In this document: positions 5,734 through 13,776 of the stretch, piece after piece
Position numbering within the stretch: position 1 is the first letter of the stretch
Layout: every line of letters begins with the position of its first letter
Program-made: the position numbers and the translations under genes
Notes under the pieces: generated by a model
Seen by the model: the letters and a program-made list of their open reading frames with translations, nothing else
Told to the model about the DNA's origin: nothing
Databases searched by the model: none
IMG/VR virus record: IMGVR_UViG_3300025131_000548
Direction: 5' to 3' (one strand)
From: a virus
Length of the DNA: 20,392 bases

Positions 5734-6525
5734 ATGTCAAAAAATAATAAAACTGACATAACTAAACTGGATACGTCTGTTTCTAAAGAGCTAAAAGAAG
5801 CTCTAGATATAATAGGAAAAGGTACTAGTGTTAGATTAGCTGAACTACCTAAAGTTCCTGAGTTACAGCATATATTATCTGCTTTTCCAGAAGAGAAAAG
5901 AGACGATATAGTGCTGACAAGGCACCAGGTCGAGAAGCTATTGAAACATTTAAAGGTTTCTACATTTGGAGTTAGTAATACTCTACCTATGGTTTGTAGA
6001 AATAATGACTGCCCCGTTGCAGAGCTATGTATATTCTATAAAATGGGAATAGCTCCAGAAGGTGAAAGGTGCCCAGAAGAAATTATGTACATGGAACAGA
6101 TACTGCCACAGTTTATTAAAGATATGGGTGTTGATATGGAAAATTACCTAGAAGTAAGTATGGTTCAAGAATATGTTTCGTCTCTTTTAGATAAAAGACG
6201 AGCAGAAAGAATGATTGCTATTGAAGGAGATGTTAAAGAAGTCGCTACTACCGTCATACAGGCTACAGGAACTGTTATATATAATGAACAAGCAACTCCT
6301 TATACTGAAATAAAGGAGAAAGCAGCTAGAAGATTACAACAATTACGTAGAGAACTATTAGCTACTAGAGAACAAAGAGCCAAGTATAAACTTGCTGACG
6401 AAGGAGATCCATCAACTAGAGCTGCAGAGATGCGAGCAAAATTTGAACTATTACAAGCAAAAGAACAACAAGATAAAAAAGCCTTAGAGTCTTCTCTTGA
6501 TAAAGCATTTAAAGAGGTAGAATAA
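5734..6525 (+). CDS. Cys-cluster/coiled-coil protein; candidate terminase small subunit
   Basis: C-x4-C-x5-C-x13-C cluster and a helical C-terminal half (RRLQQLRRELLATREQRAK). Lies upstream of terL and no other obvious TerS is present. The function is inferred. Confidence 0.3.
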   Translation: MSKNNKTDITKLDTSVSKELKEALDIIGKGTSVRLAELPKVPELQHILSAFPEEKRDDIVLTRHQVEKLLKHLKVSTFGVSNTLPMVCRNNDCPVAELCIFYKMGIAPEGERCPEEIMYMEQILPQFIKDMGVDMENYLEVSMVQEYVSSLLDKRRAERMIAIEGDVKEVATTVIQATGTVIYNEQATPYTEIKEKAARRLQQLRRELLATREQRAKYKLADEGDPSTRAAEMRAKFELLQAKEQQDKKALESSLDKAFKEVE

Positions 6526-6526
6526 A

Positions 6527-7228
6527 ATGGCTGGATTTGTTGATGCTATAAAATATCTTAGAACACCACTTGATAAGGTACCTGGAACTAATATTTTAAG
6601 TAGTTCTACTATGCTTGGTAAAGTGGCAGCAGCTAGTGCTCTAGCCGGAGTTGGAGTTGGAGCAGTAGTATCACGAGGGATGGGAGGATCTTCTAATTTA
6701 CCTGCTAGGACTAGTAGACATGAGCGTTTAACTTATGAAGATATAAATTCTAGAGGCTTTTGGAATAAACAAAAAACTCTGACGGGTATGTCTCTCATGT
6801 CAGAGCAGGGAGTGAGAGGTTATCTTGGATATGCTGCAGGTGAAGCTGTAGCAACATTTACTGGACCCTATGCAAACAAAGGTATGCTAGCAGGAGGCTT
6901 AGCTGGGGGTGCTGCATCATTAGGTGCATTGGCTTTTATTAAACCATCCTGGAAAAAAGCCGGCGGTGTCGTTGCAGCGGCGGTCGGATCCGGAGCTGTT
7001 TTAGGAGGAATTACAGCAAGAAAAGTTCAGCTTGCAGTTGCCGAATCATTTAATACAGTTCAAAAGAATTTATATAAAAAACCAATGTTTTCAAACAAAG
7101 CAAGAGGAGTTGGGCCTGGTTATAGATTATGGGCTCAACGCACAACAATGGGAAAGCCAGGACATCTAGGCGTAACAGGAAGTTTACCTTTTGCAATGCA
7201 TTCAGCTAGACATAAGAGTACCGTTTAA
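6527..7228 (+). CDS. Gly/Ala-rich basic protein with glycine-zipper-like hydrophobic segments; possible virion or membrane protein
   Basis: Segments VAAASALAGVGVGAVV, GMLAGGLAGGAASLGALAFI and GGVVAAAVGSGAVLGGI; few acidic residues. Confidence 0.5.
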   Translation: MAGFVDAIKYLRTPLDKVPGTNILSSSTMLGKVAAASALAGVGVGAVVSRGMGGSSNLPARTSRHERLTYEDINSRGFWNKQKTLTGMSLMSEQGVRGYLGYAAGEAVATFTGPYANKGMLAGGLAGGAASLGALAFIKPSWKKAGGVVAAAVGSGAVLGGITARKVQLAVAESFNTVQKNLYKKPMFSNKARGVGPGYRLWAQRTTMGKPGHLGVTGSLPFAMHSARHKSTV

Positions 7229-8364
7229 TGCCTGCTCAAAAAAATATAAGTAAATTAAGTGCTTATTTGACAGAAGTAGCAGGTGGTGGTTATTTAGGTG
7301 GATTAGGACTAGGCTCTGCAACTTTAGCTCTTGAAAGCTCTCCAGCTGGCATTTCATCATTAGATTTAATGCCAAGCCCACTTACTGCACCTTTATGGGG
7401 TGCTTTTATGACCCCTGTTCGAGCAGCAAGTATTCTAAATCCTTTTTCAGGAGAGGGAACTGGTACAAGAGGCTATGGAATATTTAACAGACAAGCCAAA
7501 ATACCATACGCTAACCCCATAATGGCGGGTCAGTTTGGGCTGAGTTTTGATGCGTCAGGGGCGAAGATAAGAACAGGAAGAAATTTTCAAAAAGCCTTCC
7601 CATTCCTTGGTCCCAAAACGGAATTTTATCGAAAACTAAAGTCAATTGAATATGGCGGGCCAATAGGTTTTAGAACTTTATTAACTGGAATGCCTGACAA
7701 GATGGGAATAAAACAAGGGTTTGCGTTAGGTTCAAGACTTTCTATAGGTAATATGGTTTTATCTGCAACTGAATCTGTAGGCCATGCAGCTATATCTGCT
7801 GGCTGGGAAGCTCCAATGTTTAGAACAATGAGGCATGCTAAATCTTTAGGCTTAGCAGGAATGCTAAATCTGGTTGATGATGCAGATTTTTTAAGTAAAA
7901 CTCCAGATAAATTGAAGTCTGCCTGGTTATATAAATTGGCCGGTGTTGATCCTAAAACACTAAAAGTTGGCGCTGAGATTACGTATGCAAAAGGAGTTAG
8001 TAAGTTTGCTCCCAAAATAACTGAGGTTGGTAAACTGGCACTTGGAGCTGGCGGTGCTGCTAAAGCATTTGCTACTGCTGCGGCTGGTTTTTCTTTATAT
8101 ACATATTTAGATCTTATGAGCGGGGCTGTAAAATTTACAGCAGATACTTTTGTAAAAGGAATAGGCGGATTAGCTGTTAGTATAAATCAATGGTTAGACG
8201 AACGAAAAGGATTAGAATTAGGATATGGAAGACTTCCTACTGCTATGATATCTTCGGCCGCAGCGACTGAAAGACAAAGAGCAGTTCGAGCTTCTTATGG
8301 AGCAAAAATAAATCCAAGAAATAGATTAATGGGAAATGAAGCAACTTATCACCATACGAGATAA
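7228..8364 (+). CDS. Gly/Ala-rich basic protein; possible virion or membrane protein
   Basis: 378 aa with GGGYLGGLGLG and LALGAGGAAKAFATAAAGFSL segments. TAATG-coupled to the preceding gene of similar composition. Confidence 0.5.
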   Translation: MPAQKNISKLSAYLTEVAGGGYLGGLGLGSATLALESSPAGISSLDLMPSPLTAPLWGAFMTPVRAASILNPFSGEGTGTRGYGIFNRQAKIPYANPIMAGQFGLSFDASGAKIRTGRNFQKAFPFLGPKTEFYRKLKSIEYGGPIGFRTLLTGMPDKMGIKQGFALGSRLSIGNMVLSATESVGHAAISAGWEAPMFRTMRHAKSLGLAGMLNLVDDADFLSKTPDKLKSAWLYKLAGVDPKTLKVGAEITYAKGVSKFAPKITEVGKLALGAGGAAKAFATAAAGFSLYTYLDLMSGAVKFTADTFVKGIGGLAVSINQWLDERKGLELGYGRLPTAMISSAAATERQRAVRASYGAKINPRNRLMGNEATYHHTR

Positions 8365-8367
8365 TTA

Positions 8368-8532
8368 ATGGGAGTTACTGTAGAAAAGAGACAACATGAG
8401 TCTGTTGGGGCATTAATAAAAAGATTTACAAAACAGGTTCAAAAATCTGGGTTAATGGAAGAACTAAGATATCGTGAATTTTATGTAAAACCGTCTTTAA
8501 GAAAAAAATATCCAAAGAAGAAGATATGGTAA
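8368..8532 (+). CDS. rpsU: Phage-encoded ribosomal protein bS21 (54 aa; not in the ORF track)
   Basis: MGVTVEKRQHESVGALIKRFTKQVQKSGLMEELRYREFYVKPSLRKKYPKKKIW matches the bS21 pattern V-x5-E-S-x3-L-x-R-F-x6-G-x7-RE(F/Y)YxKPS. Confidence 0.9.
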   Translation: MGVTVEKRQHESVGALIKRFTKQVQKSGLMEELRYREFYVKPSLRKKYPKKKIW

Positions 8533-9284
8533 TCTCTAAAAAACAACTTCTCCTAACAAATAATGGAGAAATAGTATTATCAAAAAATTTAAAAGATAAG
8601 AATATTTTTTGGTGGAATGGAACTACATATAAACCTATACGAGTTATAGATGTAAAAGATTCAAAAGTAAATTTACATAAATTTATAACATCTCAAGGTC
8701 GTATAATAAACTGTCCTTTTAATACCAATTTTTTAGGAAATCCTAATTCCTCGTGGGTAAATTATTCTAAATTTAAAGACTTATCAATTCAATCAGTTCC
8801 GGGAGCTTCTAAAAAAACTACAGTAGCAGTGCTGGGGTACTTAAAGATTTTTGGAGACTCGTGGAAGAATAAATTAGATATAGATTGTTTAAAAAGCTCT
8901 TTTTATTTATTCCAGAATAAAAGACCAAATCCCTATACTAAATTAAATATAACATTAGCATTATCAAAATTAGCTGAATCCGATTTAAAATATGTTTTAA
9001 AACCTTTTCTTTCTGAAAAGATAATAAAACATCTAACTTCGTTTAGTAAAGATTTTCTCATAATGTTACTTAGTAGATTAGGTATTGCAGCTAATGGCCA
9101 TAGTGATCACTGTCCCTTAACCGAACCAGGAACAATAAGATTTAAAGGAAGTTTAACAGAACCTTTAAAATATGAAAATTTGAGATATGCTGGAAAAATA
9201 AATGAACCAGCTATAAAAATCCGTACAGAATTTCCCACAGATAATTTATTAATAGGTAGCTTTATATGCCAGACTCCAAGTTAA
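8526..9284 (+). CDS. Free-standing degenerate intein-like protein (Hint-N, decayed LAGLIDADG-like core, Hint-C)
   Basis: VISKKQLLLTNNGEIVLSKNLK is in register with intein block A (CLPRDTQVVKENGTSVSIDKLK of the adjacent TerL intein). GRIINCPFNTNFL...W sits at block B. LGYLKIFGD and TSFSKDFLIMLLSRLGI resemble DOD blocks C and H. The ending NLLIGSFICQT resembles block G. Confidence 0.6.
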   Translation: MVISKKQLLLTNNGEIVLSKNLKDKNIFWWNGTTYKPIRVIDVKDSKVNLHKFITSQGRIINCPFNTNFLGNPNSSWVNYSKFKDLSIQSVPGASKKTTVAVLGYLKIFGDSWKNKLDIDCLKSSFYLFQNKRPNPYTKLNITLALSKLAESDLKYVLKPFLSEKIIKHLTSFSKDFLIMLLSRLGIAANGHSDHCPLTEPGTIRFKGSLTEPLKYENLRYAGKINEPAIKIRTEFPTDNLLIGSFICQTPS

Positions 9285-11605
9285 CTAAAGACGATTTATT
9301 AGAAGTACAAATTCTTAGTGATCCAGTTTACTTCGCGGAAATTTATCTTCGTTCGCCTTCTGATCCTAAAAAATCTCTAGAACTTCGTCCTTATCAGAAA
9401 AAGATTTTACGTAGTAGAGCACAGAAGAGAGTTCTTAGAATGGGAAGAAGAACTGGAAAATCTGTTACATTAGCAATTGAAGCTATATGGAAAGCTTTTA
9501 CTTATACTGATAGAGAAATTTTAATTGTGGCTGGATATGATTCTCAAGTTCAAACTTTATTTAATCTTATTAATAGAATGACTAAAGATGCTCCTGAAAT
9601 TTCATCGTCTATAGCACGTACTAGAATGCGTCCTTATGAAATTTGGTTTAAAAATAATTCTGTAATACAGGGCTATGTCGGAAATAATTCAGTTCGTGGT
9701 AAATGTCTTCCTAGAGATACTCAAGTTGTAAAAGAAAATGGAACCTCTGTATCAATTGATAAATTAAAGGTTGGAGATGAAGTATTATCTATAGATTTAG
9801 AAACAGAAAAAAGTATTGTTGGAACAGTAGAAGCAATACACGATAATGGTATTAAGGAATTATATGAAGTTGAAACAGCTTCTGAAAGATTTCTAGTTGC
9901 TACTGCAAATCATAAAGTAATGACAATGGGCAGGGGATGGGCAGAAATTCAACAACTATATACTCAAGAAAAAGTTGATAGAGAGGCTGATTTTGTTTCT
10001 GTTGTTCATCCTAATGGAAAAGCATATTGGTCAAGAGTTAAAAGAGTAACAAAGCTTTCTCTGAAAAAAAGAACATTTGATTTAACAGTAACTCCCTCTC
10101 ATACATTTGTTGCCTATAAGAAAAATTCTAATAGTAAAGGAGCAGTAGCTGCCGGACCTTCTATAACTTCAGGTCAAAAAATAGAAGAAGGATTAGCTCC
10201 AGGAGGATTTTTAGTTCATAATTCAGCCAATGATTTATATATAGATGAGGTTGATTCTTTAACAAATGAGGCACTTGTTGAAGCTGTATTACCTATTTCT
10301 ACAACATATAAAGATACTAATCTTACAATATCAGGAACTCCAACAGGTAAAAGAGAATATTTTTATAACATTGTAAAACAACAAAAAGATCTTGGCTTCA
10401 ATGAATATTTTTTTCCATCCATGGTTAGCCCCGAATGGAATAAAGATAGAGAATTAGAATTAAAAGCAGTTACAACTGTTACACAGTTTGAACATGAATA
10501 TTTAGCACTATTTGGTACAGCTGCTGAAGGAGTTTTTAAAAATAATTTTATTGACTCAAATTTATATGTATATTCTTATTCTTCTCTTAGATACAATCCA
10601 GAAAATATTTATGTATTAGGAGTAGATTGGAATGAATCTAGATTTGGAGTTCAAGCAGTTGTTTTAGAGTATATGAATATTCCTGATTTATTAATACCTT
10701 ATAATGATGGAGAATGGAAAACACCAGATGGAGAATTAATTAATAAGATTGAAAAATCAAATGCTCTTAGAGTATTTTATGCCGATGCTATAGATCCTGC
10801 AGACTTTACTAATATGGGATCAGTAGAATTTATTTTAAAACTAATGAAAAAAATCAAATTTAATAAAATGGTTTTTGATCGTGGGCACGGTGAGGCAAAT
10901 TATGAAATGCTTAGACTTTCATTAGATAAGGGTGAAGGTCCCATGGGTACAAAGTGTACAAATATGAAGTATATGTTAGATAATATGGCATCAGTTGACA
11001 TGGGAGGATCTACGGAAATCATAGATAAGATCACAGGGATAGCAAGAAAAACTCCTACAAAAAATACAATGGTAAAAAATTTACAATTATTAAATGAAAG
11101 TGGACAGCTTATAATTCCTGCAGTTGATCTAAAAGGAAATACTGTAGAAAATGAAGAATTCAATTTAGTTGGCCAAATGAGAGGATATATTATCGATAGA
11201 GTTGGTAGATATGGAGAAGTTTATGCATCTACTGTACGCGATGGTCTAGACCATAGACTTGATGCTACAATGTTGGCCGCGTATGGTTATATGATGGATA
11301 CTTCAATTTTTCATAAAAGAGATATGGATGTAGTAATAGATAATGTTCCAGGACTTGAATTAGCTTTTACTAAAGGAGGTTGGAGATCTAATTTAGAAAA
11401 AATAAAAGATGTACCTAAAGTTTCTTCATTATCTGGAGCATTACTTTATGATCATGGATTTTGGAGTGGGGAAGGAGAGCCTCCTGAATATACACTAGAT
11501 AAAAATGGAACTCCTAAAAAAGTAGGAAGTAGATCAGTAAAGAGTAGAGGATTTTCCCATAAATCAAGAACATTAACTAGAAGTACTAAAGGGAGAAGTT
11601 TCTAA
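9266..11605 (+). CDS. terL: Terminase large subunit precursor containing a mini-intein
   Basis: LRPYQ adenine-binding motif, Walker A MGRRTGKS, Walker B LYIDE, coupling motif ISGTP, and nuclease motifs LGVDW, FDRG and DHRLDA. About 606 aa after splicing. Confidence 0.95.
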   Translation: MPDSKLTKDDLLEVQILSDPVYFAEIYLRSPSDPKKSLELRPYQKKILRSRAQKRVLRMGRRTGKSVTLAIEAIWKAFTYTDREILIVAGYDSQVQTLFNLINRMTKDAPEISSSIARTRMRPYEIWFKNNSVIQGYVGNNSVRGKCLPRDTQVVKENGTSVSIDKLKVGDEVLSIDLETEKSIVGTVEAIHDNGIKELYEVETASERFLVATANHKVMTMGRGWAEIQQLYTQEKVDREADFVSVVHPNGKAYWSRVKRVTKLSLKKRTFDLTVTPSHTFVAYKKNSNSKGAVAAGPSITSGQKIEEGLAPGGFLVHNSANDLYIDEVDSLTNEALVEAVLPISTTYKDTNLTISGTPTGKREYFYNIVKQQKDLGFNEYFFPSMVSPEWNKDRELELKAVTTVTQFEHEYLALFGTAAEGVFKNNFIDSNLYVYSYSSLRYNPENIYVLGVDWNESRFGVQAVVLEYMNIPDLLIPYNDGEWKTPDGELINKIEKSNALRVFYADAIDPADFTNMGSVEFILKLMKKIKFNKMVFDRGHGEANYEMLRLSLDKGEGPMGTKCTNMKYMLDNMASVDMGGSTEIIDKITGIARKTPTKNTMVKNLQLLNESGQLIIPAVDLKGNTVENEEFNLVGQMRGYIIDRVGRYGEVYASTVRDGLDHRLDATMLAAYGYMMDTSIFHKRDMDVVIDNVPGLELAFTKGGWRSNLEKIKDVPKVSSLSGALLYDHGFWSGEGEPPEYTLDKNGTPKKVGSRSVKSRGFSHKSRTLTRSTKGRSF
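9704..10222 (+). mobile_element. Mini-intein (173 aa, TerL residues 147-319) without an endonuclease domain
   Basis: Junctions SVRGK|CLPRDT and GGFLVHN|SANDLYIDE; block B TANH; block F RTFDLTV. Removing it restores RGKSANDLYIDE. Confidence 0.93.
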
Positions 11606-13776
11606 TGCCTGACGAACAATGGGTAGAAGATCTTAGATCAGAGCTTGATGATGCTGCAATTGCAGAATTGTCTAGCTTTTTCGATCGAATAGAACAACAC
11701 ACTACCCAACAGGGCAGAAATGAAACTAAATGGAGAGACCCAATTGCAGCATTAAAAAATAGAATACAGTCAGATGTTGCTGGTGATTCTAAAGTGAGTT
11801 CGGCTGCAAGATGGAAGGCTTTAACTTCTAAAATGTCTTCTTATGTTAGAAATGCTGCAAATTCTTTATATCCTCTAAATCCAATTTCACATAATAAAGG
11901 AACATTTCTTCCAATTAAATTTCAAGAGCTAAGAGACTTAATAAGTGGCTCAGCTTTTAATAATATTGTAATAGTAACTGATCCTGGAGATTCTAGTCTT
12001 GAAGGAGGAGATAAACTTGAAAAGGAAAAACTAGAAAATATTAATAAAGATTTAAAAACACGCAATAAAACCGAAGTTAGTTGGGTTAATCCCGAACCAG
12101 CCACTATGCTCTTCTCATATGATGATACTAATCCTTTCAGATTAGAAGATGCTGAATTAACTGGAGGAAAGAAACTTTATTTAGGTTTTCCAAAACTAGG
12201 TTTAGCATTTGATAAAACTATACAAGATAAACAGGACTTAGCAAATAATCCAAATGGTGGCGTTAAGTCTGCTGTGTTTTCTATAGAAACTAGTAGTATT
12301 ACATTGGAAGATAATATTTTAACAGTCTATTTTAAAGAAGAAAATTTACAAGAGATAAAGTCAGAATGGGCAAGTTTAATATCAGTCCCACTTAATGATT
12401 CTTCTAAAGATACTCACTTTATACTTGTTGGAAGATATGTATCTTTAGAAGACGCAGATCTAGATGGATATAAAAAGAATTTAATAGAAGGGGCTAAGAC
12501 TTATGGAGCTAATGGAATCTCTGATATGATTAACGGAGTTGGCGAGGCAATAGGAGGTTCTATCGATAGCATGGCTACCAAAGAATTTTATTGTTGTATC
12601 TTCTATGAATTAATACGCAGCTCTACCATAGCAGGGGTAACAGATGCTAAAATATATAAAGTGGACTCTGGAGGTAATATAATAATACGGACCAGATATG
12701 ACACTGTATCTGAATACGAGGCAGCATTTGCTGCTGGAGATCCAATAACTTTAGAAGAACTCTTAGAAAATCCAGCTATCTCTACACAGCATATAGAGAT
12801 GTTTTTAGAAGAACAGAGAATATGGCTTAGACAGCTACATGCTCTGCTAATGGCTTTAATTCCCTTATTAACTGGAGATTCTATGAATTTCAATTGGGAA
12901 GGATTTAAATTTAACATAGCAGCTATAATGCATACTTCAATAACTATAATGCTGGTTACAATGTTAAATGTTGTTCAACAGCATCTATTTGAACAAGCTG
13001 TACAATGGGGAAAAGAAAGAATAGAAGCATCGGATAATCCAAGTGTTGTCGCCCAATGTTTACCGTGGGAACAATTATTTATGTCACTTATAGTTGCTTT
13101 ATTTGGTCCAGATGGTTGGTCAAAAAATGTTAGAGAAATGATACTAAATATGCAAGACTATATGATGAAAAAAGCAAAAGAAGTTGCTGGTGAAGGAGAA
13201 GATGCATCAGTTACTGGAGAAAATCATCCATGGTTACCTAAGCTTAATGCAGCTATAGATGTTATAGAATGGTTATTAGATTTAAATGCACAAGCTTTTA
13301 TGATTTGTGCAACTCAAAGACCAGATAAGTATGAAGCCGATTCCGGAGCTGGGTCTGCTTCCGATTCTTCCAAGAATAAAGAGACTGGAGGACCATATGA
13401 ACCTTTTCCAACATCATCAACTATTGGAAGACGAACAGGAACAGGTCTTGAATATACAGACGGACGTGGTACTGTTGATATTAAAAAAACTTCTGATACA
13501 GGAGATGGGTCTAAAGATGGTTCATTTTACTCTCCTACAGGGGGCCTAGGCCGCCAGATTGACATAACTGGTGAGAAGATCAATCCCGTTTCTCTCTTAA
13601 TTGAGCAAAAAGATGAGGACGTGGCTAAATTTTTTGCACAATATATGGGTTTAACTCAAGAAGAAGCAAATGAAGCTGTAAGTAAGGCGAAAAAAGGAGA
13701 ATGTGTAAAAGCTTTAGGCGCCGATGAGATACAAGAACTTAAAAATGCTCTAACTAATGTAGGACTAGAATACTAA
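11605..13776 (+). CDS. Large hypothetical protein between terL and portal; probable virion-associated protein
   Basis: 723 aa, TAATG-coupled at both ends, acidic, with a hydrophobic helical block (LHALLMALIPLL...ITIMLVTMLNVV...LFMSLIVALFG). Confidence 0.6.
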   Translation: MPDEQWVEDLRSELDDAAIAELSSFFDRIEQHTTQQGRNETKWRDPIAALKNRIQSDVAGDSKVSSAARWKALTSKMSSYVRNAANSLYPLNPISHNKGTFLPIKFQELRDLISGSAFNNIVIVTDPGDSSLEGGDKLEKEKLENINKDLKTRNKTEVSWVNPEPATMLFSYDDTNPFRLEDAELTGGKKLYLGFPKLGLAFDKTIQDKQDLANNPNGGVKSAVFSIETSSITLEDNILTVYFKEENLQEIKSEWASLISVPLNDSSKDTHFILVGRYVSLEDADLDGYKKNLIEGAKTYGANGISDMINGVGEAIGGSIDSMATKEFYCCIFYELIRSSTIAGVTDAKIYKVDSGGNIIIRTRYDTVSEYEAAFAAGDPITLEELLENPAISTQHIEMFLEEQRIWLRQLHALLMALIPLLTGDSMNFNWEGFKFNIAAIMHTSITIMLVTMLNVVQQHLFEQAVQWGKERIEASDNPSVVAQCLPWEQLFMSLIVALFGPDGWSKNVREMILNMQDYMMKKAKEVAGEGEDASVTGENHPWLPKLNAAIDVIEWLLDLNAQAFMICATQRPDKYEADSGAGSASDSSKNKETGGPYEPFPTSSTIGRRTGTGLEYTDGRGTVDIKKTSDTGDGSKDGSFYSPTGGLGRQIDITGEKINPVSLLIEQKDEDVAKFFAQYMGLTQEEANEAVSKAKKGECVKALGADEIQELKNALTNVGLEY

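What the first reader, a model, noticed from the sequence alone, without database searches (positions are those of the whole stretch)
8526..9284. A whole but dead intein expressed as its own gene, directly upstream of the intein-bearing terminase
Seen: the 252-aa ORF has no extein yet follows the intein block order. Block A is in register with the neighbouring TerL intein (same NG, V and LK positions) but Cys1 is Val. Block B TxxH reads PFNT. A LAGLIDADG-like LGYLKIFGD and a block-H-like LLSRLGI lie in the middle, and a block-G-like ending has CQ|TPS in place of HN|S. It overlaps both bS21 and terL and has no frameshift or stop. Known: inteins normally sit inside host genes, and Gln-terminated inteins and stand-alone Hint domains exist. 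Inference: it may be a domesticated intein with a new role, for example a DOD-fold DNA binder assisting packaging or a partner of the TerL mini-intein, or an escaped endonuclease partner now decaying.
Basis: partly seen in the sequence, partly recalled or inferred. Interest (0 to 1): 0.82.

Follow-up and report, generated by a model that had tools for sequence, protein, structure and literature searches.

The report
Domesticated dead intein before phage terminase
A 252-residue phage gene just upstream of the DNA-packaging motor gene terL encodes a complete intein fold with no host protein around it and no splicing or DNA-cutting residues, yet selection has kept it across a whole clade of uncultured phages, so a former genetic parasite now appears to do another, untested job.

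Summary

- **Ends and dead sites:** the protein starts and ends at the intein boundaries. Cys1 is Val, block B TxxH reads PFNT, and there is no terminal His-Asn.
- **Insert:** the 100-residue insert sits at the canonical endonuclease site. It looks like a shrunken LAGLIDADG remnant with no conserved acidic residue, yet it is the best-conserved part.
- **Distribution:** all 17 distinct related loci with upstream sequence have the gene, always overlapping an intein-bearing terL. Outgroup phages lack both features.
- **Evolution:** it co-diverges with TerL (r=0.93), with dN/dS about 0.06-0.26.

It is therefore a vertically inherited, domesticated, extein-less dead intein, not a decaying relic. 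Its function is untested; my best guess is a non-catalytic terminase accessory. The nearest precedent is yeast HO/WHO. Unchecked notes from this scan report similar stand-alone dead Hint genes before terL on other DNA.

The parts
8526..9284 (+). Stand-alone, extein-less, catalytically dead intein-fold gene (252 aa, P0001)
8526..8834 (+). N-terminal Hint half (aa 1-103): block A without a nucleophile (Val2 at the Cys1 position), and block B GR..C...T with Thr67 at the His position
   Evidence: Register from hhalign and from the profile against the DnaB mini-intein. VIA aligns model residue 2 with chain residue 1. Model strands span aa 2-71 and 99-103.
8835..9134 (+). Insert at the canonical homing-endonuclease site (aa 104-203): mostly helical, probably a vestigial LAGLIDADG domain, and the most conserved part of the protein (motifs LPxFG, KRPN, Q.IP..LSKL, SKD.LI.LLSRLGI)
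9135..9284 (+). C-terminal Hint half (aa 204-252, blocks F and G): ends ...GSFICQTPS with no His-Asn and no conserved +1 nucleophile
   Evidence: Model strands span aa 204-249. VIA aligns model residue 250 with the last intein residue. Cys248 is common but is replaced by Trp in distant members.
9266..9284 (+). 19-nt overlap of the ORF stop with the terL start; terL lies in the -1 frame
   Evidence: The overlap is 13-43 nt with the same frame offset in all 17 loci. The window's overlap contains no slippery heptamer.
9266..11605 (+). Large terminase TerL (779 aa), T4-like
   Evidence: Pfam Terminase_6N; PHROG 2 at E=4.3e-23.
9704..10222 (+). TerL mini-intein (aa 147-319, GK|C...HN|S) just before Walker B; all splicing residues are kept
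   Evidence: Pfam Intein_splicing E=2e-11. C147, T213, H216, H318, N319 and S320 are invariant in 9 TerLs. The intein is at the same site in every clade member.
8368..8532 (+). Phage bS21 (54 aa), overlapping the ORF start by 7 nt
   Evidence: Pfam Ribosomal_S21 E=1.8e-11. It is absent between the upstream gene and the ORF in L031, L033 and L034.
5734..6522 (+). Probable small terminase, three genes upstream
   Evidence: Pfam Terminase_4 E=3.5e-5, 24.6 bits against a cut-off of 24.7. PHROG 83 (TerS) E=0.0038.

Best explanation
The gene encodes a former intein that now stands alone. It has a complete Hint horseshoe (aa 1-103 and 204-250). A 100-residue remnant of a LAGLIDADG endonuclease domain sits at the canonical insertion site. 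It has the initiator Met in place of an N-extein and 2-3 residues in place of a C-extein.

Every residue needed for splicing is replaced: Cys1, the block B Thr and His, the terminal His-Asn and the +1 nucleophile. The endonuclease acidic residues and the DNA-contacting hairpins are gone. The protein can therefore neither splice nor cut DNA in the known ways.

It appears in the same clade of uncultured phages as the endonuclease-less mini-intein of TerL, and is found only in that clade. It has since been inherited vertically under purifying selection, with the ex-endonuclease insert as its most constrained part.

Inference on origin: the ORF and the TerL mini-intein were acquired together. The ORF may once have been a free-standing nuclease that mobilised the neighbouring intein in trans.

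Inference on function (about 35% likely): it is translated together with TerL through the conserved overlap, and it serves as a non-catalytic binding subunit of the packaging machinery. Its partner could be the terminase or the DNA.
For: Shown:
- Sequence-level register.
- Dead sites.
- Insert derived from a LAGLIDADG domain.
- Distribution: all 17 distinct loci with TerL at 36% identity or more have both the ORF and the mini-intein. Intein-less outgroup TerLs lack the ORF.
- Vertical descent: ORF and TerL pairwise identities correlate at r=0.93 over 136 pairs.
- Selection: dN/dS is 0.06-0.26 with dS saturated.
- The insert is the most conserved region.
- The overlap with terL is conserved at 13-43 nt.
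- pI is 9.2-10.3 in 16 of 17 members.
- The exhaustive search returned 14 relatives of 137-278 aa (seven loci-derived members are 254-279 aa), and the separate profile search restricted to 490-2000-residue proteins found none.
Against: - No experiment and no co-folding supports any partner or function.
- The fold evidence rests on a predicted model.
- Sequence-level links to inteins are below the usual thresholds (E=0.0026-0.014).
- The co-occurrence with the mini-intein is a single phylogenetic event, not repeated evidence.
- High pI is common in AT-rich phage proteomes.
- The insert lacks the beta-saddle that LAGLIDADG proteins use to bind DNA, so DNA binding is not implied.
- A probable TerS already exists three genes upstream, so the ORF is not needed to fill that role.
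- In the held literature, bS21 phages have a co-evolving neighbour gene of unknown function (10.1101/2021.10.11.463225). A link to translation rather than packaging is therefore not excluded, although three loci have the ORF without bS21.
Confidence: 0.7

Rival explanations
1. It is a WHO/HO-like selfish element: a still-active, free-standing, intein-derived homing endonuclease that cuts terL alleles lacking it and drags the adjacent mini-intein along.
For: - It is an extein-less intein-derived gene lying next to a conserved essential gene, as with the WHO elements beside FBA1 (PMC7282813).
- It co-occurs perfectly with an endonuclease-less intein about 420 nt downstream of its stop.
- Trans-homing by a neighbouring free-standing nuclease is known in T4, where mobE mobilises the defunct I-TevIII (abstract of PMC2790892).
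Against: - No LAGLIDADG acidic residue is conserved, and the beta-hairpins are deleted.
- There is no presence/absence polymorphism within the clade, no extra copies and no terL fragments.
- It co-diverges with TerL at r=0.93.
- There is no zinc finger.
Confidence: 0.07
2. It is a trans-acting partner of the TerL mini-intein. The dead Hint domain or its insert binds the TerL precursor and times or assists splicing, so that active terminase appears only late.
For: - It co-occurs strictly with the Walker-B-site mini-intein and is absent from phages with intein-less TerL. It is also absent upstream of a distant TerL that has an intein at another site, L048.
- The overlap with terL suggests translational coupling, which would give a fixed stoichiometry.
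Against: - The co-occurrence is one phylogenetic event.
- No trans-acting intein regulator of this kind is known to me.
- The mini-intein keeps all its catalytic residues and should splice unaided.
- No interaction data exist.
Confidence: 0.1
3. The protein itself has no function. The frame is kept open only because its translation delivers ribosomes to the overlapping terL start, or because the DNA carries a packaging or regulatory signal.
For: The overlaps with bS21 and terL are conserved. No promoter-like or terminator-like signal above chance lies between the genes.
Against: - dN/dS of 0.06-0.26 shows constraint at the amino-acid level while synonymous sites are saturated, so the DNA itself is not conserved.
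- A confident fold emerges from the family alignment.
- Conserved motifs are concentrated in the insert.
Confidence: 0.05
4. It works with phage bS21 in late translation take-over, for example as an RNA-binding protein in the way that LAGLIDADG maturases bind RNA, rather than with the terminase.
For: - It is translationally coupled to bS21 in most loci.
- The protein is basic.
- A different bS21 phage group has a co-evolving neighbour gene of unknown function (10.1101/2021.10.11.463225).
Against: - L031, L033 and L034 keep the ORF directly before terL with no bS21 gene.
- The overlap with terL is universal, whereas the link to bS21 is not.
- In the published group, bS21 lies on the opposite strand, so homology with that neighbour gene is unknown.
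Confidence: 0.08

Closest known systems
HO endonuclease and WHO elements of budding yeasts (Coughlan et al. 2020, PMC7282813)
   Same: They are intein-derived proteins (a Hint domain with a LAGLIDADG insert) encoded as their own genes with no exteins and no splicing. The WHO genes lie next to the conserved gene they act on.
   Different: - HO and WHO keep an active endonuclease, carry a C-terminal zinc-finger domain and lack motif G.
- WHO genes are polymorphic and form clusters of pseudogenes.
- The phage protein has no zinc finger, keeps a block G strand, has lost the nuclease residues, is single-copy and co-diverges with its phage.
Canonical LAGLIDADG inteins of phage terminases, for example the P-loop intein of the related phage L024 and the mycobacteriophage TerL inteins (PMC5050341)
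   Same: They share the architecture: Hint N-half, an insert at the canonical endonuclease site, then Hint C-half. Block H and blocks D and E are alignable. They share the genomic neighbourhood of terL.
   Different: Those inteins are embedded in frame in TerL and have Cys1, TxxH, His-Asn and two LAGLIDADG motifs (Pfam LAGLIDADG_3 E=9e-21 for L024). The ORF has none of these and has no host protein.
Mini-inteins (Mtu RecA, Ssp/Npu DnaB, gp41-1)
   Different: They are active splicing elements without an insert. Sequence identity to the ORF is only 12-20%.
Non-splicing Hint domains (Hedgehog HhC, bacterial BIL domains, Vint)
   Different: These domains still autoprocess (cleavage or ligation), keep catalytic residues, and are parts of larger proteins.
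Domesticated, catalytically dead LAGLIDADG proteins (bacterial WhiA; reviewed in PMC3384342, which I found by search and did not read in full) and the HNH accessory proteins of HK97-like terminases (from my own knowledge)
   Same: They are precedents for a homing-endonuclease fold retained as a non-cutting host factor, and for an endonuclease-family protein encoded beside terminase genes and required for packaging.
   Different: WhiA keeps a full LAGLIDADG fold plus an HTH domain and has no Hint domain. The HNH proteins have a different fold and are catalytically active.

Membership tests
Intein (protein-splicing element) | Hint horseshoe fold | tested here: met
Intein (protein-splicing element) | Inserted in frame in a host protein, with N- and C-exteins | tested here: not met
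   The ORF begins with Met and then the residue at intein position 1, and it ends 2-3 residues after block G. Other family members have 1-20 leading residues and 1-8 trailing residues (up to 7-8 in L022 and L031). The search for longer forms found no embedded relative, which is weak evidence.
Intein (protein-splicing element) | Nucleophile at position 1 (Cys, Ser or Thr), or the class 2/3 alternatives | tested here: not met
   The position holds Val, Ile, Leu, Ala or Arg across 27 members. No family-wide Cys is present at block F. Cys63 and Cys248 are absent in distant members.
Intein (protein-splicing element) | Block B TxxH | tested here: not met
   It reads PFNT. His is replaced by Thr67 and the Thr position varies.
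Intein (protein-splicing element) | Terminal His-Asn (or Gln) followed by a +1 Cys, Ser or Thr | tested here: not met
   The end reads C-Q-T-P-S. In either register the positions are not His-Asn and are variable across the family.
LAGLIDADG (DOD) homing endonuclease | LAGLIDADG helices ending in a conserved catalytic Asp or Glu | tested here: not met
   No acidic column is conserved in aa 104-203. The position aligned to the DG of the second motif is non-acidic or variable.
LAGLIDADG (DOD) homing endonuclease | alpha-beta-beta-alpha-beta-beta-alpha fold with a DNA-binding beta-saddle | tested here: inconclusive
LAGLIDADG (DOD) homing endonuclease | Sequence-profile membership (Pfam LAGLIDADG_3 or Hom_end) | tested here: not met
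   No Pfam hit for any of the 16 members of A2 or for 6 further loci-derived members scanned; a few A5 members (for example L022, no hit at E<=0.01) were not scanned at E<=1. The only support is a weak hhalign match, E=0.012 against 0.4 for the reversed control, and an ESM feature lead at 0.90.
HO/WHO intein-derived endonucleases | Extein-less intein-like region encoded as its own gene | tested here: met
   The feature is as defined in PMC7282813.
HO/WHO intein-derived endonucleases | C-terminal zinc-finger domain with CxxC repeats | tested here: not met
   The protein ends right after block G and has no CxxC motif.
HO/WHO intein-derived endonucleases | Mobility: polymorphic presence, clusters or pseudogenes, duplicated fragments of the target gene | tested here: not met
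   The gene is single-copy in all 17 loci. It co-diverges with TerL at r=0.93. No terL fragments lie upstream.
Small terminase (TerS) | Profile match to TerS families or a TerS-like fold | tested here: not met
   The ORF has no Pfam or PHROG hit and its fold is Hint. A separate TerS candidate lies at 5734-6522.

The most novel reading that the evidence does not exclude
A domesticated, catalytically dead intein is a required component of this phage clade's packaging system. It would act either as a terminase subunit or as a trans-acting controller of splicing of the intein-bearing TerL precursor. If so, a protein-splicing parasite and its dead paralogue would have been turned into a regulatory pair.
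Probability: 0.12. Interest if true: 0.88.

Novelty: new variant of a known kind. Interest (0 to 1): 0.62.

Why it matters
Inteins are usually treated as pure parasites. The only described cases of extein-less intein genes put to other use are yeast HO and WHO; three full-text searches of the held library found no others.

This case differs in three ways. It is in a phage, both enzymatic activities are lost, and the former endonuclease insert is the most strongly selected part. In ordinary intein decay the endonuclease is the first part to go.

The gene is fixed in front of terL and overlaps it across a clade whose TerLs have diverged to about 37% identity. It also arrived together with the TerL mini-intein. 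This makes it a concrete case for asking what a dead intein can do for a virus, and whether terminase inteins and their neighbours interact.

Tried and rejected
- **Direct sequence evidence.** Nothing significant came from:
  - Pfam and PHROGs on the ORF;
  - Pfam on the 16 A2 members plus six further loci-derived members;
  - phmmer and a 16-sequence profile against PDB sequences;
  - BLASTP against TerL;
  - tblastn against 50,697 phage records.
- **First AF2 model.** The four-sequence model was poor (pLDDT 51). Its hits were already inteins, but I did not rely on it.
- **Fused or embedded forms.** The profile search among 490-2000-residue proteins found none, which is weak evidence.
- **Frameshift fusion to TerL.** terL is always in the -1 frame, but the window's overlap has no slippery heptamer, and a fusion would still lack splicing residues. 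Rejected.
- **bS21 as N-extein.** Rejected, because the gene has its own ATG in another frame and position 1 is Val.
- **A new catalytic site made of Cys63, Thr67 and Cys248.** Rejected as a family-wide feature, because distant members have other residues there, including Trp at position 248.
- **C-terminal cleavage by Gln cyclisation.** Rejected, because Gln249 is not conserved.
- **Cultured relative or host.** The best cultured TerL match is 29% identical, and a scan of 185,579 species genomes found no relative.
- **Foreign composition.** The ORF's GC (0.28-0.30) matches that of terL.
- **Tools unavailable.** The window's own assembly is not held.

Full report
**1. Observation**

The window carries a co-oriented late-gene run. 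In order it holds:
- a collagen-like protein, a PDF-like protein, GroES and a ClpP-like protein;
- a probable TerS at 5734-6522;
- two unknown genes;
- bS21 at 8368-8532;
- the ORF under study at 8526-9284;
- TerL at 9266-11605;
- one unknown gene, then the portal, a Com-like zinc ribbon, a protease/scaffold candidate and the capsid protein.

The ORF has 252 codons, an ATG start and a TAA stop. It overlaps bS21 by 7 nt and terL by 19 nt. No ORF of 50 aa or more lies on the other strand there. At about 29% GC, a chance open frame of this length has a probability of about 6e-10 (my arithmetic). TerL contains a 173-aa mini-intein (aa 147-319, GK|C...HN|S; Pfam Intein_splicing E=2e-11). Its Cys1, block B Thr and His, His-Asn and +1 Ser are invariant in nine diverged TerLs.

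**2. Identity**

Direct sequence searches say nothing. There is no significant Pfam, PHROG or PDB-sequence hit, no BLASTP similarity to the TerL intein, and no match in cultured phages.

An exhaustive phmmer scan of 1.84 billion representatives found 14 relatives of 137-278 residues, and nothing else. All the full-length ones are about 245-280 aa.

With four sequences the AlphaFold model was poor (pLDDT 51). With 16 sequences it reached pLDDT 89.8 and pTM 0.89. That model gives these matches:
- Foldseek against the PDB: the TliVMA and PhoVMA inteins at E=5.6e-6 and 6.3e-6, and the hits listed (ranks 1-50) are all inteins or other Hint-superfamily proteins.
- Endonuclease-bearing inteins (PhoVMA, TliVMA, PI-PkoII, PI-SceI): 226-230 of the 252 residues align.

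Weak sequence evidence agrees in register:
- hhalign of the family against the TerL mini-inteins gives E=0.0026.
- A 27-sequence profile has the Ssp DnaB mini-intein as its best PDB sequence hit (E=0.014). Five of the top seven hits are inteins.

**3. Catalytic status**

In the consistent register, the catalytic positions are replaced as follows:
- Cys1 corresponds to Val2 (Val, Ile, Leu, Ala or Arg in the family).
- Block B TxxH reads PFNT. His is replaced by a mostly conserved Thr67.
- The end reads ...GSFICQTPS.

The spacing from Gly244 puts Cys248-Gln249 on His-Asn. The structural end-ranges put Gln249-Thr250 there. Either way there is no His-Asn and no conserved +1 nucleophile. Cys63 and Cys248 are common, but distant members have other residues, including Trp at 248. 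This argues against a new family-wide active site.

The protein therefore starts and stops at the intein boundaries. Members have 1-20 leading residues and 1-8 trailing residues. Splicing and autocleavage of the known kinds are excluded.

**4. The insert (aa 104-203)**

The insert sits at the canonical endonuclease insertion site, between the two Hint halves. The model shows four helices and only short strands.

Evidence that it derives from a LAGLIDADG domain:
- Its SKD.LI.LLSRLGI segment aligns with block H of genuine LAGLIDADG inteins found in related phages.
- Its Q.IP..LSKL...L..L segment aligns with blocks D and E of those inteins. The Asp-Gly of the second LAGLIDADG motif and the following beta-hairpin are missing. 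hhalign gives E=0.012, against 0.4 for a reversed control.
- The ESM Atlas nearest clusters for this part carry LAGLIDADG_3 (score 0.90), which is a lead only.

Evidence against an intact domain:
- No acidic column is conserved.
Only its Gly110 is invariant.

I read the insert as a shrunken, inactive LAGLIDADG remnant, at about 60% confidence. It is nevertheless the best-conserved part of the protein. Its mean pairwise identity is 0.32-0.39, against 0.23-0.29 for the Hint halves. This is the opposite of what is seen when inteins decay to mini-inteins.

**5. Distribution and evolution**

Scans of IMG/VR with the ORF and with TerL gave 56 loci.

- **Within the clade:** every locus whose TerL is 36% or more identical to the window's, and that includes upstream sequence, has the ORF directly before terL. 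That is 17 distinct sequences. The ORF overlaps terL by 13-43 nt, always in the same frame relation. Every one of these TerLs has the mini-intein at the same site.
- **Link to bS21:** L031, L033 and L034 have the ORF and the intein but no bS21 gene between the upstream gene and the ORF. The link is therefore to terL rather than to bS21.
- **Outgroups:** TerLs at 32% identity or less (L038-L053) are mostly intein-less, of about 565-610 aa, and lack the ORF. L048 has a mini-intein at a different site (the P-loop) and no ORF in the 373 nt available upstream.
- **Caveat:** the co-occurrence of ORF and Walker-B-site mini-intein is perfect, but it is a single phylogenetic event.
- **Vertical descent:** ORF and TerL pairwise identities correlate (Pearson 0.93, Spearman 0.82, 136 non-independent pairs). 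This indicates vertical co-divergence rather than mobility.
- **Selection:** Nei-Gojobori dN/dS for five moderately diverged pairs is 0.06-0.26, against 0.03-0.11 for TerL, with dS at or near saturation. The window and a near-identical contig differ by one synonymous change. The protein evolves two to three times faster than TerL but is clearly under purifying selection, and the DNA itself is not conserved.

**6. How it most likely works**

Shown: the gene is an extein-less, catalytically dead, vertically inherited intein-fold protein under selection. It is tightly linked to an intein-bearing terL and overlaps it.

Inferred origin: the ORF and the mini-intein entered the clade's ancestor together. 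One plausible route is a free-standing or ectopically inserted intein/endonuclease that mobilised the neighbouring endonuclease-less intein in trans. T4 mobE does this for the defunct I-TevIII (PMC2790892), and the WHO elements lie beside their target gene in a similar way (PMC7282813). After fixation the nuclease decayed.

Inferred present function, at about 35%: a non-catalytic binding protein made in step with TerL and acting in packaging. The conserved insert would be the interaction surface.

Alternatives:
- a trans partner of TerL intein splicing (about 10%);
- a role linked to bS21 or to RNA (about 8%);
- a still-active WHO-like nuclease (about 7%);
- a frame kept open only for translational coupling (about 5%).

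A probable TerS exists elsewhere, so the ORF is not simply the small terminase.

**7. Comparison and novelty**

In the held literature the only extein-less intein-derived genes are yeast HO and WHO (searches; PMC7282813 states that both have no exteins and lack motif G). The phage protein shares the extein-less Hint-plus-insert architecture and the position beside a conserved gene. It differs in lacking the zinc finger, nuclease residues, mobility and clustering. It is not a member of the intein family by function, since four defining features were tested and not met. It is a structural member of the Hint superfamily.

BFVD contains a few viral proteins of 277-358 aa annotated as DOD-type homing endonucleases that match the model at about E=1e-6. 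They may be similar stand-alone forms, and I did not follow them up.

Earlier unchecked notes of this scan report stand-alone dead Hint genes directly before terL in other phages, and extein-less dead inteins in giant viruses and archaea. I could not compare sequences, so these remain leads. If they are independent, they would make a terminase-linked role more likely.

I class the finding as a new variant of a known kind and score interest at 0.62.

**8. Limits**

- All fold evidence rests on a predicted model.
- No coordinates were available for checking residue proximity.
- The window's own assembly is not held.
- No cultured relative or host was found.

Noticed in passing
L024:1585-5160: A related phage's TerL (1191 aa) carries a second, full-size LAGLIDADG intein of 411 aa inside the Walker A P-loop (GRR|C...SN|TGK), in addition to the clade's mini-intein. 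Pfam gives LAGLIDADG_3 E=9e-21 and Intein_splicing E=2.9e-16.
   Followed up: partly
L033:2980-5796 and L036:2974-6558: These TerLs of 938 and 1194 aa also hold extra insertions. L033 has a second Hint/intein near the P-loop (Pfam Intein_splicing with two stretches). The extra roughly 400 aa of L036 has no Pfam match.
   Followed up: partly
L048:374-2710: A distant TerL (24% identity) has a mini-intein in the P-loop (GK|C...HN|T) and no dead-intein ORF upstream. The gene before it is a Gly/Ala-rich protein like the window's 7228-8364.
   Followed up: partly
L037:419-4161: In this contig both terL (95 + 271 + 566 aa pieces) and the dead-intein ORF (120 + 149 aa pieces) are split by frame breaks. 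The cause could be assembly or sequencing errors or a degenerate genome.
   Followed up: no
L031:1107-3004, L033:1095-2998, L034: These clade members have the dead-intein ORF directly after the homologue of the window's 378-aa gene, with no bS21 gene between them. bS21 is therefore a later or separately lost addition.
   Followed up: partly
window:6500-8300 versus 8300-12500: GC falls from about 0.40-0.43 to about 0.28-0.33 near position 8300. The upstream genes encode Gly/Ala-rich proteins. Relatives' homologues start with Ala/Gly-rich stretches.
   Followed up: no
window:1857-2186: A 109-aa ORF after GroES has a sub-threshold Pfam hit to HNH_repeat, the homing-endonuclease-associated repeat (E=2e-4, 22 bits against a cut-off of 26).
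   Followed up: no
BFVD entries A0A6J7WN65 (293 aa), A0A2H4UV68 (277 aa), A0A481YWE8 (358 aa), I6R3T6 (317 aa): These short viral proteins are mostly annotated as DOD-type homing endonucleases (I6R3T6 carries no name). They match the whole model at Foldseek E of about 1e-6 to 2e-5. They may be further stand-alone intein-like genes in phages and giant viruses.
   Followed up: no
window:11605-13776: A 723-aa gene between terL and the portal has no Pfam or PHROG match. It is conserved in position in relatives, at 737-803 aa.
   Followed up: no
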